Positions 41,701-47,700 of a DNA stretch of 64,000 nucleotides are shown here, in pieces; within the stretch, counting starts at the first letter, position 1; each line of letters opens with the position of its first letter. A program made the position numbers. Origin of the DNA: Escherichia coli (GTDB lineage: Bacteria; Pseudomonadota; Gammaproteobacteria; Enterobacterales; Enterobacteriaceae). The DNA is taken from NCBI RefSeq assembly GCF_030013205.1, contig NZ_CP122648.1; one strand, 5' to 3'.

Positions 41701-44700
41701 TTGGGTGTAAGCCTGATCCACTGCCTGCTGTAATTTGTTTGCATCTAACATCTTTTGTTAACTCCTTTTTATAGATGCGGGAGGTAATTCCTCACCCCGG
41801 TGCCGATTTTCAGGCATCCTGATTTAACTTAGCACCCGCAACTTAACTACAGGAAAACAAAGAGATAAATGTCTAATCCTGATGCAAATCGAGCCGATTT
41901 TTTAATCTTTACGGACTTTTACCCGCCTGGTTTATTAATTTCTTGACCTTCCCCTTGCTGGAAGGTTTAACCTTTATCACAGCCAGTCAAAACTGTCTTA
42001 AAAGGAGTGTTTTATGTCACAAACTATCGACCTGACCCTGGACGGCCTGTCCTGCGGTCACTGCGTTAAACGCGTGAAAGAAAGTCTCGAACAGCGCCCG
42101 GATGTTGAGCAGGCGGATGTGTCTGTCACTGAAGCGCACGTTACCGGGACTGCCAGTGCAGAACAGCTGATCGAAACCATCAAACAAGCGGGTTATGACG
42201 CATCTGTAAGCCACCCAAAGGCTAAACCGCTGGCGGAGTCATCAATCCCGTCGGAAGCACTGACAGCGGTTTCTGAGGCGCTTCCGGCAGCGACCGCCGA
42301 TGACGATGACAGCCAGCAGTTGCTGCTGAGCGGCATGAGCTGCGCCAGCTGTGTCACCCGCGTACAAAATGCGCTGCAAAGCGTACCGGGCGTCACTCAG
42401 GCACGGGTAAACCTGGCGGAGCGTACTGCGCTGGTGATGGGCAGTGCCTCCCCACAAGATTTAGTGCAGGCGGTGGAAAAAGCGGGCTACGGCGCGGAAG
42501 CGATTGAAGATGACGCTAAACGCCGCGAGCGCCAGCAAGAAACCGCCGTCGCTACGATGAAGCGCTTCCGCTGGCAGGCGATTGTCGCACTGGCGGTGGG
42601 TATACCGGTGATGGTCTGGGGGATGATCGGCGATAACATGATGGTCACCGCCGACAACCGCAGCCTGTGGTTGGTTATCGGCCTGATAACCCTGGCGGTA
42701 ATGGTTTTCGCCGGCGGGCATTTTTACCGCAGCGCATGGAAAAGCCTGCTGAACGGTGCAGCGACGATGGATACGCTGGTGGCGCTGGGTACTGGCGTGG
42801 CGTGGCTCTATTCGATGAGCGTCAACCTGTGGCCGCAGTGGTTCCCGATGGAAGCGCGACATCTTTATTACGAAGCCAGCGCGATGATTATCGGTCTGAT
42901 CAATCTCGGTCATATGCTGGAAGCGCGCGCACGTCAGCGTTCTTCAAAGGCGCTGGAGAAATTACTCGATTTAACCCCACCGACGGCGCGCCTGGTCACC
43001 GACGAAGGTGAAAAAAACGTGCCGCTGGCAGATGTTCAGCCAGGTATGTTACTGCGCCTGACGACCGGCGACCGTGTGCCGGTAGATGGTGAGATTACCC
43101 AGGGCGAAGCGTGGCTGGATGAAGCGATGCTGACGGGCGAACCTATCCCGCAGCAAAAAGGCGAAGGCGATAGCGTCCATGCCGGGACAGTGGTACAGGA
43201 CGGCAGTGTGCTGTTTCGTGCCAGTGCGGTCGGCAGCCATACTACGCTGTCACGGATCATTCGCATGGTGCGACAGGCCCAGAGCAGCAAGCCAGAAATA
43301 GGTCAACTGGCGGATAAAATCTCCGCCGTGTTTGTGCCGGTAGTGGTAGTCATTGCGCTGATCAGTGCGGCAATCTGGTATTTCTTTGGTCCGGCACCGC
43401 AGATTGTCTATACCCTGGTGATTGCCACCACGGTGCTGATTATCGCCTGTCCGTGTGCGCTGGGACTGGCGACGCCGATGTCGATTATTTCGGGCGTCGG
43501 GCGGGCGGCTGAGTTTGGTGTGCTGGTGCGGGACGCCGACGCGCTGCAACGCGCCAGTACGCTCGACACCGTGGTGTTCGATAAAACCGGGACGCTGACC
43601 GAAGGGAAGCCGCAGGTTGTCGCAGTAAAAACATTTGCTGATGTTGATGAAGCGCAAGCATTGCGTCTGGCGGCGGCGCTGGAGCAAGGTTCCAGCCACC
43701 CGCTGGCACGGGCGATCCTCGATAAAGCAGGTGATATGCAGCTACCGCAGGTCAACGGTTTCCGCACATTGCGCGGGCTGGGTGTGAGCGGTGAAGCTGA
43801 AGGTCATGCGGTATTGCTGGGCAATCAGGCGCTGTTAAATGACCAGCAAGTTGATACTAAAACGATTGAGGCAGATATTTCAGCTCAGGCATCGCAAGGG
43901 GCAACGCCTGTGCTGCTGGCGGTTGACGGGAAAGCGGTGGCCTTGCTGGCAGTACGCGATCCGTTGCGTAGTGATAGCGTGGCGGCGCTGCAACGTCTGC
44001 ATAAAGCGGGATATCGTCTGGTGATGTTGACCGGGGATAACCCAACCACCGCCAATGCGATCGCCAAAGAAGCAGGGATTGATGAGGTGATCGCCGGGGT
44101 GCTGCCGGACGGTAAAGCCGAAGCGATCAAACGTCTGCAAAGTGAAGGACGTCAGGTGGCAATGGTGGGCGACGGCATTAACGACGCGCCAGCGCTGGCC
44201 CAGGCGGATGTCGGTATTGCGATGGGTGGCGGCAGTGATGTTGCCATTGAAACCGCGGCGATTACCCTGATGCGCCATAGCCTGATGGGTGTTGCAGATG
44301 CGCTCGCGATTTCCCGCGCAACGCTGCGCAATATGAAGCAGAACCTGCTCGGTGCGTTTATCTACAACAGCATTGGTATTCCGGTCGCCGCCGGTATTTT
44401 GTGGCCGTTCACTGGAACACTGCTTAACCCGGTGGTTGCCGGAGCGGCAATGGCGCTCTCGTCGATTACCGTAGTGAGTAACGCCAACCGGTTACTGCGG
44501 TTTAAACCGAAAGAGTGATTGGTATTTACTTAATGCGTTTGTGAGATCCAGTTCTTGTTGCGCTCCTTTTATGAGTCATGCCATATAAAGTGACTGGCGC
44601 AGGGAGCGCGCAGGGGGCGGCCAATCGCCGCCGCCCCCTGCCCCCCCGGGCTCTGGCGAACAAAATCGCCGCTGCGCGGTACCCTCAGCTTATCCCTTGC

Positions 44701-47700
44701 GGCTACCGGGTCGGGCGCGAGGTAACATCCCTGTAAAACGCGCCCTCAGCCCACATCCATGTGGGCTGCCCCGGCCTTCAGGGAACGCCTCGGCGATTTT
44801 GACGCCACCAACACCGGTGCAGTCTTTCGTTTCAAAGCAAAAACAATTTTTCGATCATATTTAAGCTACCACTGAACAAGCCTCATAACTCCATTTGCGC
44901 CATCCCTCCCCGCGCGCTAGCATGATATTTCACAAAGGGAGGTCGTATGGATCTGTTGTACCGGGTAAAAACGCTTTGGGCCGCGCTGCGCGGTAATCAT
45001 TACACCTGGCCTGCTATCGATATCTCTCTTCCCGGCAATCGCCATTTTCATCTGATTGGCAGTATTCATATGGGCAGCCACGATATGGCTCCCCTGCCCG
45101 CCCGTTTGCTCAAAAAGCTCAAAAACGCCGATGCGCTGATCGTCGAGGCGGATGTTTCCACCAGCGATACGCCTTTTGCTAATTTGCCTGCCTGCGAGGC
45201 GCTGGAAGAGCGCATTAGCGAGGAGCAACTCCAAAACCTGCAGCACATTAGCCAGGAGATGGGCATTTCTACCTCACTCTTTTCTACCCAACCGCTGTGG
45301 CAAATCGCGATGGTTCTTCAGGCGACGCAGGCACAAAAACTGGGGCTGCGGGCAGAATACGGTATCGATTACCAGCTATTGCAGGCGGCGAAGCAACAAC
45401 ATAAACCCGTGATTGAACTGGAAGGGGCTGAAAACCAGATTGCCATGTTGCTCCAGCTCCCTGACAACGGACTGGCACTGCTGGACGATACGCTGACCCA
45501 CTGGCACACCAATGCACGGTTGCTGCAACAAATGATGAGCTGGTGGCTGAATGCGCCGCCGCAAAATAATGAAATAACGCTGCCTAATACGTTCAGTCAG
45601 TCGCTGTACGATGTGCTGATGCATCAGCGAAATCTCGCCTGGCGGGACAAATTATGCGCCATGCCGCCGGGGCGCTATGTGGTCGCAGTCGGTGCACTAC
45701 ACCTGTATGGAGAAGGGAATTTGCCGCAGATGTTGCGCTAAAAAAATGGCCAATATCGCTATTGGCCCGTCAAAGAGGAATTTCATATTTTTATTATTAT
45801 GCCGTCACTTTAAGCGACGGTGTAACTCGATTGTCGCTCAATCTCACCATCCTGCCAATACTCTTAGGCAAGATGACTCTTTTTTTGGACCGCCATCAGG
45901 CGTATGCTTGCTTCGTTTTTTTGTTTAAGGCAGGAAAATTACCATGACACCCGCAGTTAAATTACTCGAAAAAAACAAGATTTCGTTTCAAATCCATACC
46001 TACGAGCACGATCCGGCTGAAACCAATTTTGGCGATGAAGTCGTCAAAAAATTAGGTTTGAATCCGGATCAGGTCTACAAAACGCTGCTGGTCGCAGTGA
46101 ACGGTGATATGAAACACCTTGCCGTGGCCGTTACGCCGGTCGCAGGTCAACTGGATCTTAAAAAAGTAGCAAAAGCGCTGGGTGCCAAGAAAGTTGAGAT
46201 GGCCGATCCGATGGTTGCGCAGCGTTCGACGGGATATCTGGTTGGGGGGATTAGCCCTCTGGGGCAGAAAAAACGTCTGCCAACGATTATCGACGCCCCC
46301 GCACAAGAATTTGCCACTATTTATGTTTCCGGTGGCAAGCGCGGACTGGATATCGAACTGACGGCAGGCGATCTGGCGAAGATCCTCGATGCCAAATTTG
46401 CTGATATCGCCCGCCGCGATTAAGCATTGTGCCGGATGCGAACATCCGGCACTTTCGGATTACTGCCAGCTCACCTCACCTTTCGGTTCATAAACACTCA
46501 CATCCAGCGGCGAGCTTTTCTGGATATACGCTTTCAGCACTTCGGCATCAATAAAGCCGGTATTCACATAGCCCGGTTTGTTATCAAGGCGCGGATATCC
46601 ATCACCGCCGGTGGCATTGAAGTTTAATGTCGCCATGCGGTAAGTTTTCGCCGGATCGACCGGTTCGCCGTTGATTTTCAGGTCGTTGAGTTTGCCGTCT
46701 TTCGCCACAAAGCTAACGTTGGCAAATTGCGGGTAGGCACCTGAATCTGGCTTCATTTGTGCGACGGCGGTCAGGTAATCAATCACCTCTTTACCGGTCA
46801 TGTCGGCATACACCACCACATTGCCGAATGGCTGCACTTTCAGCACGTTTTTATAGCTGATATCGCCTGCTTCGATAGAATCACGAATTCCGCCTCCACT
46901 CATCACCGCAAAGTCAGCACCAGTGCGATCCATTTGGGCTGCCAGAATCAACCGCCCCATATTGGTCTGTACAAAACGCACTTTGTCACGATCGCCTTCC
47001 AGACGACCATTGGTTTCGCCTATTTTCACTTCCAGCTGCGCTTTGCCTTTGTTCTGGAACGGCGATAACAGCGAGATCATTTGCTGGTTTTCAGCGATTT
47101 CAGGGGTGTACAGCACGCGCTCGCTTTTCCCGTCTTCCCAGGTCACTTTCTTCTTCAGGTTCACCGGAATCAGCTGGTAGTTAACCATTTTCATTTCGCC
47201 ATTACGAAACTCAAAATCAGCCCGTCCCACGTATTTGCCCCACTCATGCGCCTGCACAATCCAGATGCCGTTTTGTTGATCTGGTTTGCATGGCGTACCC
47301 GGCACGTAATCGACCTGTTTTTTGTTTTCTGCCGCCATGCAGACCGGATCTTGCGAGTGACCACCGACGATCATCGCCAGCGATCCGGCAGGCAGCGCGC
47401 GCGCCATCTCCACATCGCCCGGTGCGTTAGAGCCGTGCTCACCATTGTCGTAATGCCCCATATGGGTCGCCTCGATAATAATGTCTGGCTTTTCTGTCTG
47501 TTGCAGCTCCTGAATCACCAGCTTCGCTTCATCGGCGGGCTTACGGAACTCAATATCGGTGAAGTTTTCTGGGTTGCCTAACTTCGCTGTGTCATCCGTC
47601 GTCAGGCCAATAACGGCAATTTTCAGATCCTGACGCTTAAACAGCGCCCATGGTTTAAACAGGCGCTCGCCGGTACTTTTCTGGTAGATATTGGCAGAAA

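What the first reader, a model, noticed from the sequence alone, without database searches (positions are those of the whole stretch)
44519..44946. ybaQ missing between copA and ybaP; replaced by a GC-rich nested-palindrome element
In the K-12 arrangement as I remember it, a small regulator gene (ybaQ, ~113 aa) lies between copA and ybaP. Here the 428-bp interval has no ORF of 60 aa or more. Instead it contains a ~230-bp GC-rich block with nested inverted repeats (cagggggcggc...gccgccccctg; cagcccacatccatgtgggctg; ggcgaacaaaatcgccg paired with cggcgattttgacgcc). It could be a miniature inverted-repeat element, a deletion scar, or a structured RNA.
Basis: partly seen in the sequence, partly recalled or inferred. 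Interest (0 to 1): 0.5.

Follow-up and report, generated by a model that had tools for sequence, protein, structure and literature searches.

The report
Structured GGA-hairpin repeat replacing ybaQ
In this E. coli strain the spacer between copA and ybaP lacks the usual antitoxin gene ybaQ and instead carries one copy of an unannotated, structurally conserved ~270-base repeat, found in every E. coli including K-12, whose core is a diverged relative of the orphan TwoAYGGAY RNA motif and shows two textbook-looking CsrA binding hairpins.

Summary
K-12 has BIME repeats plus ybaQ (a HigA-type antitoxin) between copA and ybaP. The window has a 428-bp spacer with no ybaQ and a 69% GC block with the quoted palindromes. 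346 of 5,426 complete E. coli genomes share this allele.

The block is not a deletion scar. It is a copy (44553-44823, weaker similarity to about 44846) of a dispersed repeat. The repeat is fixed at aqpZ-lysO and dusC-yohP in all Escherichia examined, truncated at putP-efeU, and present at alx-sstT in 31% of genomes. It also occurs in Pseudocitrobacter and Klebsiella (13 places in one chromosome). No genome annotates it.

Its 155-nt core (44653-44807, minus strand) covaries strongly. Rfam TwoAYGGAY matches it below threshold (31.5 vs 43 bits). A model built from the core finds a threshold-passing TwoAYGGAY RNA in Pseudocitrobacter at 64 bits.

Two hairpin loops, ACAUGGAUGU and UACAGGGAUGU, lie 28 nt apart and fit the CsrA SELEX consensus and its dual-site spacing.

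My best reading is a dispersed RNA module that docks a CsrA dimer. The function is inferred. No promoter, terminator, TIRs or target duplication were found. I rate it a new variant of a known kind, of moderate interest.

The parts
42014..44518 (+). copA (Cu+ P-type ATPase). This is the left flank. Its last three codons already differ from K-12 (AAA GAG TGA vs AAG GAA TAA).
44519..44871 (.). Allele-specific segment that stands where K-12 has BIME copies plus ybaQ. Similarity to K-12 resumes at about 44872.
   Evidence: alignment A1; 346 of 5,426 genomes share the whole interval, 343 of them at 99% identity or more
44553..44846 (-). Copy of the dispersed repeat. 44553-44823 is 90-95% identical to the copies at aqpZ-lysO and dusC-yohP. 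44824-44846 is a weakly conserved sense-5' edge shared with the Pseudocitrobacter copy.
44653..44807 (-). 155-nt multi-helix core domain, TwoAYGGAY-like. It is closed by a 13+5-bp stem (44655-44671 with 44791-44806).
44747..44768 (-). Hairpin A: a 9-bp stem with loop AUGGAU. The sense sequence ACAUGGAUGU is at 44762-44753, with GGA at 44758-44756.
44713..44745 (-). Hairpin B: outer stem GGGCGCG/CGCGCCC, with inner AC(AGGGAU)GU. The sense sequence UACAGGGAUGU is at 44735-44725, with GGA at 44730-44728, 28 nt from the GGA of hairpin A.
44610..44641 (-). 12-bp G+C hairpin downstream of the core on the sense strand. It shows compensatory changes between copies and is not followed by a U-run.
44560..44609 (-). 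Third stem, GCGCTCC (44560-44566) with GGAGCGC (44603-44609), enclosing a variable loop. TTGCGCTCC is invariant in the 13 full-length copies aligned.
44872..44946 (+). ybaP upstream region, shared with K-12. It is not part of the repeat.
44947..45741 (+). ybaP (TraB/GumN family). This is the right flank.

Best explanation
Shown. The copA-ybaP spacer of this strain is an alternative allele. The HigA-type antitoxin gene ybaQ (with or without its RelE/ParE toxin partner in other strains) and its BIME repeats are absent, and one copy of a dispersed repeat of about 270-295 nt is present. The repeat is conserved as a folded nucleic acid with three modules: a 155-nt multi-helix domain, a 12-bp GC hairpin, and a third stem. 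The 155-nt domain is a diverged relative of the TwoAYGGAY RNA motif (RF01731), which makes the window's minus strand the sense strand. Across all copies and the sister family, the constant unpaired features are two hairpin loops carrying GGA.

Inferred. When the sense strand is transcribed, the two loops dock one CsrA dimer. In the window they read AC[AUGGAU]GU and AC[AGGGAU]GU and lie 28 nt apart. Each copy would then titrate CsrA or bring CsrA to the host transcript. The element has no promoter or terminator of its own, so expression would depend on neighbouring transcription. At six of the nine occupied arrangements I oriented, the sense strand lies just 3' of a co-directional gene. In this window the sense strand is antisense to copA and ybaP. 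This copy may therefore be poorly expressed as sense RNA, while its antisense version is probably part of the copA 3' UTR.

How it got here. Most likely by allelic replacement of the whole spacer through recombination in the flanking genes, not by cut-and-paste insertion.
For: Allele: ybaQ in K-12, none in the window; 346 of 5,426 genomes share the allele; ybaQ annotated as HigA-family antitoxin, with a RelE/ParE toxin beside it in some strains.

Repeat family: aqpZ-lysO and dusC-yohP copies in E. coli, E. albertii, E. whittamii and Escherichia sp. E1V33; truncated putP-efeU copy; alx-sstT copy in 1,659 of 5,426 genomes; Pseudocitrobacter, mdlB-glnK; Klebsiella, 13 places in one chromosome.

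Structure: (17 copies; 98% of cells paired; 11 of 49 pairs changed on both sides vs 6.5 +/- 1.2 in shuffles, 0 of 500 reaching it; slid controls 3 or fewer). (with the sister family: 23 of 49 pairs changed on both sides, 98.2% paired, slid controls 5 or fewer).

TwoAYGGAY link: 31.5 bits, E = 0.022, full-length match on the minus strand; a 49.2-bit match above the 43-bit threshold at L011 2218-2281; my model R1 hits L011 2181-2335 at 64 bits, E about 1e-12, and L016 at 63 bits; the published alignment contains ACAGGGACGU and AUCAGGGAUGAU loops and several copies in a single genome.

Strand: in the core, one-sided changes give 5-6 G.U cells on the minus strand against 1-2 cells that would be G.U on the plus strand. 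The consensus energy is -116.9 for the minus strand vs -104.0 for the plus strand.

CsrA fit: the SELEX consensus is RUACARGGAUGU, a hexaloop closed by AC/GU, with bridging of two sites 10-63 nt apart (review PMC7652899). The only two ACANGGAYGT matches in the 64-kb window are these loops. GGA is kept in every copy although neighbouring bases vary (AGGGAU, AAGGAC, A-GGAC, CGGAC).
Against: There is no experimental evidence here that either strand is transcribed or that CsrA binds. No sigma-70-like promoter or intrinsic terminator was found at the window copy or at the two K-12 loci, and no UvrY/GacA box lies nearby. The published E. coli CsrA CLIP-seq gene table flags none of ybjE (lysO), dusC or efeU as bound; aqpZ and yohP do not appear in the held supplementary text at all. 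That table is gene-centred and does not report intergenic repeats. The orientation relative to neighbouring genes is not fixed, and the aqpZ-lysO spacer even has two alleles with opposite orientation. Hairpin A has a very stable 9-bp stem, whereas most SELEX ligands had four or fewer contiguous pairs. In Klebsiella the ACA of the consensus is GCA. Both DNA strands fold about equally well, so a role as DNA or as a strand-independent RNA hairpin cluster is not excluded. The Rfam threshold for TwoAYGGAY is not reached.
Confidence: 0.55

Rival explanations
1. A generic palindromic intergenic repeat that works at the DNA level or as a strand-independent hairpin cluster, like REP/BIME. It would act as a barrier to 3' exonucleases, a pause or termination aid, or a nucleoid-protein site downstream of genes. 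On this view the GGA loops are incidental.
For: Both strands fold equally far below shuffles. The copies sit downstream of genes, in convergent or tandem spacers, and replace BIME or BoxC-like repeats at the same sites. Orientation varies. No promoter of its own was found. In the window the plus-strand version follows copA with no terminator in between.
Against: A simple hairpin barrier does not need a 155-nt multi-branch fold with 23 covarying pairs, nor invariant loop sequences that are kept between families sharing little primary sequence. G.U versus A.C counts and the homology to TwoAYGGAY favour one strand. REP-type models match elsewhere in the window but not here.
Confidence: 0.22
2. 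A non-autonomous mobile element (MITE-like) moved by a transposase encoded elsewhere. The conserved hairpins would be the enzyme's recognition structures in single-stranded DNA, as for IS200/IS605 ends or REP/RAYT.
For: Copy number varies (1-10 places per E. coli genome by blastn with the 278-nt repeat; 13 in a Klebsiella chromosome). Presence or absence is polymorphic at copA-ybaP (6%) and alx-sstT (31%). Different genera have different loci occupied. The copies are about 88% identical between Escherichia and Pseudocitrobacter. The two ends share weak TTKTTGC-like similarity in inverted orientation, seen by eye.
Against: No terminal inverted repeats were found by the repeat finder and there is no target-site duplication. 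No filled site versus clean empty site pair was found; each polymorphic site is a cassette swap with unrelated flanks. The two fixed loci are orthologous across Escherichia species, so they are old and immobile. There are no matches in phage records, and the 'plasmid' hits I opened (chromosome-sized records, or records with chromosomal genes such as putP-efeU) are mislabelled chromosomal DNA; all 34 are typed non-mobilizable.
Confidence: 0.13
3. A self-contained small-RNA gene of the CsrB/CsrC type: a CsrA sponge with its own regulated promoter and terminator.
For: Rfam places TwoAYGGAY in clan CL00106, which from memory is the Csr/Rsm clan. Gardner and Eldai proposed that TwoAYGGAY RNAs bind CsrA (PMC4333381). 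The element has two SELEX-like sites.
Against: Only two exposed GGA loops, where known sponges carry many more (13-22 quoted for CsrB/CsrC). No UvrY/GacA box. No promoter-like or terminator-like site at three copies. The region upstream of the sense strand is not conserved between copies.
Confidence: 0.07
4. A remnant of ybaQ or of another degraded gene, or a small protein-coding gene.
For: ORFs of 45-55 aa overlap the block. A Klebsiella aerogenes record annotates an 'uncharacterised protein' across a copy. Some copies have an SD-like AAAGGAG followed by AUG at the sense 3' end.
Against: There is no similarity to YbaQ or to the K-12 spacer. Copies differ by 1-nt indels and by paired stem changes, not by codon-wise changes. 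The ORFs after the SD-like motif are 0-27 aa long and unrelated to each other.
Confidence: 0.03

Closest known systems
TwoAYGGAY RNA motif (Rfam RF01731; Weinberg et al. 2010, PMC2864571)
   Same: Two adjacent hairpins with GGA-containing hexaloops (AUGGAU, AGGGAU) inside a long closing stem. It occurs in gamma-proteobacteria, has several copies per genome, shows no consistent gene association, and has unknown function. A full-length sub-threshold Rfam match falls on the same strand. A model built from the E. coli family finds a threshold-passing member at 64 bits.
   Different: It scores 29.6-31.5 bits against a 43-bit threshold, so annotation pipelines miss it. In a 37-kb scan with an E-value limit of 1, the Klebsiella copies gave no RF01731 match at all. 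Hairpin B has an enlarged loop with an inner mini-stem. There are extra internal helices (a 155-nt domain versus a core of about 67 nt). Two further conserved modules follow: a 12-bp GC hairpin and a GCGCUCC/GGAGCGC stem. The six E. coli, Klebsiella, Citrobacter and Enterobacter accession numbers I searched for do not occur in the stored part of the published alignment.
CsrB/CsrC/Rsm sponge RNAs and CsrA-bound mRNA leaders
   Same: GGA in hairpin loops that match the SELEX consensus RUACARGGAUGU. The two sites are spaced 28 nt apart, within the 10-63 nt range bridged by one CsrA dimer.
   Different: Only two exposed sites. No UvrY/GacA-type promoter and no terminator. It is a dispersed repeat rather than a single regulated gene. 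Binding is untested.
Enterobacterial intergenic repeats (REP/BIME, BoxC, ERIC/IRU, RSA)
   Same: Short, palindromic, extragenic, multi-copy and variable between strains. It occupies the same kind of spacer, and at copA-ybaP and alx-sstT it alternates with BIME and BoxC-like DNA.
   Different: Much lower copy number (about 3-10). It is longer, and has a complex covarying multi-branch fold with invariant loops. It has no REP consensus. RSA is listed as 150-151 bp with 6 copies in K-12 (PMC5172473), whereas K-12-type genomes hold only 2 full copies plus 1 truncated copy of this repeat. I could not obtain an RSA sequence to compare.
ybaQ / HigB-HigA-type toxin-antitoxin cassette (the alternative occupant of this spacer)
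   Same: A small accessory module whose presence varies between strains, sitting between copA and ybaP.
   Different: It is protein-coding and shares no sequence with the repeat. The window has none of it.

Membership tests
TwoAYGGAY RNA (RF01731) | Score at or above Rfam's gathering threshold (43 bits) | tested here: not met
   Window copy 31.5 bits, E = 0.022. K-12 aqpZ copy 30.6 bits and Pseudocitrobacter copy 29.6 bits.
TwoAYGGAY RNA (RF01731) | First terminal loop carries AYGGAY | tested here: met
   Loop AUGGAU (sense strand, 44759-44754) is invariant in 17 copies and in the sister family.
TwoAYGGAY RNA (RF01731) | Second terminal loop carries AYGGAY | tested here: inconclusive
   The window has AGGGAU, with R instead of Y at position 2. 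Other copies have AAGGAC, A-GGAC or CGGAC. The published alignment itself contains ACAGGGACGU and AUCAGGGAUGAU.
TwoAYGGAY RNA (RF01731) | Long closing P1 stem around the two hairpins | tested here: met
   A 13+5-bp closing helix, 44655-44671 with 44791-44806, with double-sided changes at 5 pairs in A10 and 11 pairs in A11.
TwoAYGGAY RNA (RF01731) | Homology to an accepted member shown by an independent profile | tested here: met
   Model R1, built only from the E. coli, Klebsiella and Pseudocitrobacter cores, hits L011 2181-2335 (64.2 bits) and L016 5633-5787 (63 bits). The L011 region contains a 49.2-bit RF01731 match.
Csr/Rsm sponge sRNA (CsrB, CsrC) | Many GGA motifs in loops or single-stranded stretches | tested here: not met
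   Two GGA motifs in loops. Two further GGA motifs lie inside helices.
Csr/Rsm sponge sRNA (CsrB, CsrC) | UvrY/GacA-dependent promoter (TGTAAG-N6-CTTACA box) and an intrinsic terminator | tested here: not met
   No box match between 41541 and 46984, even with 3 mismatches allowed. No promoter-like or terminator-like site.
Csr/Rsm sponge sRNA (CsrB, CsrC) | Binds CsrA | not testable with these tools
   Only the sequence fit to the SELEX consensus and the site spacing could be checked. The CLIP-seq gene table gives no support.
MITE | Terminal inverted repeats | tested here: not met
   No inverted repeat joins the two ends of 44553-44846. There is only a weak TTKTTGC-like resemblance, seen by eye.
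MITE | Target-site duplication and a clean empty site | tested here: not met
   At copA-ybaP, aqpZ-lysO and alx-sstT the alleles differ by cassette replacement with unrelated flanks.
MITE | Multi-copy, with presence/absence polymorphism | tested here: met
   1-10 places per E. coli genome with the 278-nt repeat. 346 of 5,426 genomes at copA-ybaP and 1,659 of 5,426 at alx-sstT.
REP/BIME | A palindromic unit of about 35-40 nt with the REP consensus | tested here: not met
   The REP-derived Rfam model naRNA4 matches at 11765-11842 and 51499-51576 but not here. The K-12 allele, not the window, carries the BIME copies.
RSA repeats | 150-152 bp, six copies in K-12 | tested here: not met
   The median E. 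coli genome has 3 places by blastn. K-12-type genomes have 2 full copies (about 271 bp) and 1 truncated copy. RSA figures are from PMC5172473.
RSA repeats | Sequence identity to the RSA consensus | not testable with these tools
   No RSA sequence or coordinates could be obtained. The RefSeq K-12 records carry no repeat features here, and the defining papers are not held.
HigA/YbaQ antitoxin locus | An HTH antitoxin ORF between copA and ybaP | tested here: not met
   tblastn with K-12 YbaQ finds no hit in the window.

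The most novel reading that the evidence does not exclude
E. coli (including K-12), other Escherichia species, Pseudocitrobacter and Klebsiella carry an overlooked family of dispersed RNA modules. Each would be a high-affinity two-site trap for one CsrA dimer, embedded in 3' UTRs or spacers. Copy number (about 3-10 in E. coli, 13 in a Klebsiella chromosome) and location differ between strains. They would therefore tune free CsrA, or put neighbouring genes (yohP, alx, aqpZ, and here the copA-ybaP spacer) under Csr control. This would also give the 2010 orphan motif TwoAYGGAY its first function, in the most tractable organism available.
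Probability: 0.25. Interest if true: 0.75.

Novelty: new variant of a known kind. Interest (0 to 1): 0.5.

Why it matters
TwoAYGGAY has been an orphan RNA motif since 2010, known mainly from gut metagenomes. This work shows that a diverged branch of it sits unannotated at fixed loci in E. coli K-12, with extra copies in some lineages. That makes its function directly testable with existing CsrA reagents, CLIP data and genetics. It also documents that the copA-ybaP spacer is a swap site where a toxin-antitoxin remnant and a structured repeat alternate. This matters for pan-genome annotation, because 5,425 of 5,426 complete genomes carry the repeat and none of the roughly 130 hit rows listed shows an annotated feature over it. 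If CsrA binding is confirmed, strain-to-strain differences in copy number would be a new variable in the Csr network of Escherichia and Klebsiella.

Tried and rejected
1. ybaQ hidden in the interval or elsewhere in the window: tblastn was negative.

2. Deletion scar: rejected by the alignment to K-12.

3. A second copy in the 64-kb window: none found by blastn or by the covariance model.

4. A known Rfam family at curated thresholds: none over the interval.

5. Phage or plasmid origin: there are no phage matches. The 'plasmid' hits I opened were chromosome-sized records or carried chromosomal genes, and all 34 are typed non-mobilizable.

6. Simple in-situ inversion at aqpZ-lysO: rejected, because the flanks next to the repeat differ between the two alleles.

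7. Clean insertion with a target duplication at alx-sstT: rejected.

8. The sister (threshold-passing) TwoAYGGAY type in E. coli: blastn found nothing meaningful.

9. Own promoter, terminator or UvrY box: none.

10. A conserved small ORF behind the SD-like AAAGGAG: none.

11. Literature. Searches for RSA/BEE95, for the hairpin sequence itself, and for yohP/CsrA found no description of this repeat. The note that defines RSA is not held. The CsrA CLIP-seq tables give no signal for the neighbouring genes.

12. The genome-contig scan used an E. coli-type exact pattern, so it says nothing about more diverged genera. Its one Sporolactobacillus hit (L019) gave no blastn match to the element and I treated it as chance.

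Full report
**1. The observation**

The window is E. coli. It is 98.8-99.9% identical over about 50 kb to strain CFSAN018748. copA ends at 44518 and ybaP starts at 44947. In K-12 MG1655 the same two genes are separated by 794 bp that hold three BIME/REP-type units and ybaQ. In the window the spacer is 428 bp with no ORF of 60 aa or more inside it, and tblastn with YbaQ finds nothing anywhere in the 64 kb.

The block 44595-44823 is 69% GC against 55.5% for the window. Both strands fold far below shuffled controls (z = -5.6 and -5.8).

**2. What stands in place of ybaQ**

Similarity between the window and K-12 stops inside the last three codons of copA and resumes at about 44872, 75 bp upstream of ybaP. 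The 353 bp in between are unrelated to the K-12 segment, so this is not a deletion scar.

346 of 5,426 complete E. coli genomes have the whole 428-bp interval, 343 of them at 99% identity or more, and no feature is annotated there. In the other genomes the site holds ybaQ, which PGAP calls a HigA-family antitoxin. Some genomes also have a RelE/ParE-family toxin gene beside it, and the number of BIME units varies. The spacer is therefore a swap site for small accessory modules.

**3. The block is one copy of a dispersed repeat**

Positions 44553-44823 match, at 90-95% identity, unannotated DNA elsewhere in 5,425 of 5,426 genomes. The copies I located are these:

- aqpZ-lysO and dusC-yohP. Both sites are occupied in E. 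coli, E. whittamii and Escherichia sp. E1V33; for E. albertii I recovered only the aqpZ-lysO copy. These copies are old.
- putP-efeU. This copy lost 125 bp between two short direct repeats and lacks both GGA hairpins.
- alx-sstT. Present in 1,659 of 5,426 genomes. K-12 has BoxC-like DNA there.
- Pseudocitrobacter has a copy between mdlB and glnK.
- Klebsiella has the 222-bp core at about 85% identity, with 13 places in one K. pneumoniae chromosome.

E. coli genomes have a median of 3 places, the window's lineage has 6, and the maximum is 10. There are no phage matches. The 'plasmid' hits I opened were chromosome-sized records or carried chromosomal genes such as putP-efeU, so they are mislabelled chromosomal DNA, and all 34 are typed non-mobilizable. 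The window holds no second copy.

**4. No transposon-like anatomy**

I found no terminal inverted repeats and no target duplication. At each polymorphic site the alleles differ by a cassette with unrelated flanks. The aqpZ-lysO spacer exists in two alleles that carry the repeat in opposite orientations with different flanking DNA. The K-12 orientation is the one seen in E. albertii, E. whittamii and Escherichia sp. E1V33. Spread by recombination of whole spacers fits better than cut-and-paste transposition, but the mechanism is not shown.

**5. It is conserved as a structure**

Across 13 full-length copies, RNAalifold gives three modules on the minus strand, with 14 pairs changed on both sides:

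- a 155-nt multi-branch domain (44807-44653),
- the 12-bp GC hairpin,
- a GCGCUCC/GGAGCGC stem.

For the 155-nt domain in 17 copies, 98% of cells are paired. Eleven of 49 pairs show double-sided changes, against 6.5 +/- 1.2 in shuffles (0 of 500 reach it) and at most 3 when the partners are slid. Examples:

- CCCACA/UGUGGG in E. coli becomes CCCGCA/UGCGGG in Klebsiella and CGCGCA/UGCGCG in the alx copy.
- GGCG/CGCC becomes GGCC/GGCC in the closing stem.
- CCGC/GCGG becomes CCAC/GUGG in K. aerogenes.

**6. Strand and family**

Rfam has no match at curated thresholds. TwoAYGGAY (RF01731) matches the minus strand end to end at 31.5 bits against a threshold of 43, with E = 0.022.

In Pseudocitrobacter the same spacer holds a second element about 60 bp away and head-to-head. 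It passes the threshold at 49.2 bits. A covariance model built only from the E. coli-type cores finds that element over its full length, at 64 bits in L011 and 63 bits in L016. With these two sequences added, 23 of 49 pairs show double-sided changes while 98.2% of cells stay paired. That alignment was fitted to the model, but the slid controls stay at 5 or fewer.

One-sided changes are mostly G.U on the minus strand: 5-6 cells, against 1-2 that would be G.U on the plus strand. I conclude that the core is a diverged relative of TwoAYGGAY and that the window's minus strand is the sense strand.

The authors describe TwoAYGGAY as two terminal AYGGAY loops inside an often very long P1. They report it in Clostridia, gamma-proteobacteria and gut metagenomes, with no known function. 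Their alignment has several copies in one Psychromonas genome and loop variants such as ACAGGGACGU. Six E. coli, Klebsiella, Citrobacter and Enterobacter accession numbers that I searched for do not occur in the stored part of it.

**7. How it most likely works**

Between the two families almost everything has changed except the fold and the two loops. In the window these are AC[AUGGAU]GU (44762-44753) and UAC[AGGGAU]GU (44735-44725). They are the only two ACANGGAYGT matches in the 64 kb. GGA is kept in every copy although its neighbours vary.

This fits what is known about CsrA. Its SELEX consensus is RUACARGGAUGU, presented as a hexaloop closed by AC/GU, and one CsrA dimer bridges two sites 10-63 nt apart (PMC7652899). 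Here the GGA motifs are 28 nt apart. Gardner and Eldai already proposed that TwoAYGGAY RNAs bind CsrA. I therefore commit to a CsrA-dimer docking module as the most likely function.

This step is inferred, not shown. The points against it:

- There is no promoter, terminator or UvrY box.
- The published CLIP-seq gene table does not flag those neighbouring genes it lists (ybjE, dusC, efeU) as CsrA-bound.
- Hairpin A has a more stable stem than most SELEX ligands.
- Orientation relative to genes varies.

At six of the nine occupied arrangements I oriented, the sense strand lies just downstream of a co-directional gene: yohP, alx, aqpZ in the O157-type allele, and three Klebsiella genes. In the window it is antisense to copA and ybaP. 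This particular copy may therefore be expressed mainly as its antisense, as part of the copA 3' UTR.

**8. Rivals**

A generic REP-like hairpin cluster or DNA-level element remains possible (0.22). A transposase-driven MITE is less likely (0.13). A self-contained CsrB-like sRNA gene is unlikely (0.07). A coding or pseudogene remnant is very unlikely (0.03).

**9. Known or new**

The closest named family is TwoAYGGAY. The window copy fails its curated threshold and has extra helices and two extra modules, so I file it as a new variant rather than a member.

It is not REP/BIME. It is probably not RSA, which is listed as 150-151 bp with six copies in K-12, whereas K-12-type genomes have two full copies and one truncated copy of this repeat. 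I could not obtain an RSA sequence, nor Rudd's 1999 catalogue of K-12 intergenic repeats, which may list the K-12 pair as plain DNA repeats. No paper in the held library contains the hairpin sequence.

**10. Verdict**

The finding is a strain-specific extra copy of an unannotated, structurally conserved TwoAYGGAY-like repeat with two CsrA-type hairpins, sitting where most strains have a toxin-antitoxin remnant. Interest is moderate, 0.5. It is not a new kind of system, but it puts an orphan RNA motif into E. coli K-12, where its function can be tested.

Noticed in passing
window 14730-39186: A type I secretion cluster with a giant repetitive adhesin: ORFs 18068-34573 (5,501 aa) and 34498-37722 (1,074 aa) on the minus strand, apparently one gene split by a frameshift or stop. 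It is flanked by HlyD-like and ABC genes (14730-18064) and a TolC-family gene (37831-39186), between cueR and ybaT. The near-identical RefSeq genome calls it a siiEA (BapA-related) pseudogene. From memory, K-12 has cueR and ybaT adjacent.
   Followed up: partly
L003 2935-3428 vs L007 2362-2818 (aqpZ-lysO spacer): Two alleles of the aqpZ-lysO spacer carry the repeat in opposite orientations with unrelated flanking DNA. The K-12 type is also seen in E. albertii, E. whittamii and Escherichia sp. E1V33. The inverted type is in O157:H7 and strain E69.
   Followed up: partly
L011 1868-2335 (Pseudocitrobacter faecalis, mdlB-glnK spacer); also L016 5320-5787: Two related elements lie head-to-head about 60 bp apart: an E. 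coli-type copy (sense strand = minus) and a threshold-passing TwoAYGGAY RNA (plus strand, 49.2 bits) followed by its own GC hairpin.
   Followed up: partly
L024 2501-2642 (putP-efeU spacer, E. coli): A truncated copy of the repeat. 125 bp, including both GGA hairpins, were lost between the short direct repeats CCCCGGGCTCTGGCGAAC and CCCCGGCCTTCAGGGAAC (window 44644-44661 and 44769-44786).
   Followed up: yes
L025 2430-2862 vs L027 3047-3444 (alx-sstT spacer): 1,659 of 5,426 E. coli genomes carry a more diverged copy of the repeat downstream of alx. K-12 has BoxC-like DNA at the same place.
   Followed up: yes
window 44501-44517 and 44820-44836: A 17-nt imperfect inverted repeat (82% complementary) joins the last codons of copA to the right edge of the repeat. 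The window's copA ending (AAAGAGTGA) fits it better than K-12's (AAGGAATAA). It could be chance or a trace of how the allele arose.
   Followed up: no
window 44553-44575 (sense 3' end) and the same place in other copies: An SD-like AAAGGAG, sequestered in the third stem, is followed in several E. coli copies by AUG(AUG) and short unrelated ORFs of 9-27 aa. The window copy has no AUG.
   Followed up: yes
window 45740-45823 (-), 63390-63513 (-), 59499-59563 (-), 51499-51576 (-), 11765-11842 (+): Expected Rfam features: sroB/ChiX sRNA between ybaP and ybaK, STnc490, the dnaX frameshift element, and two naRNA4 (REP325-type) matches.
   Followed up: no
L020 1064-1285 and 1501-1722 (Klebsiella pneumoniae, pcaC / mechanosensitive-channel spacer): Two copies of the repeat core in the same orientation, 437 bp apart, in one spacer. 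The PLSDB 'plasmid' record that holds them is a 5.37-Mb chromosome.
   Followed up: no
NZ_CP137697.1 33666-33736 (hit H60): A 128.8-kb E. coli record matches only the ybaP upstream part of the interval (query 357-428, 94% identity). In total, 12 places fell on plasmid records in the first search.
   Followed up: no
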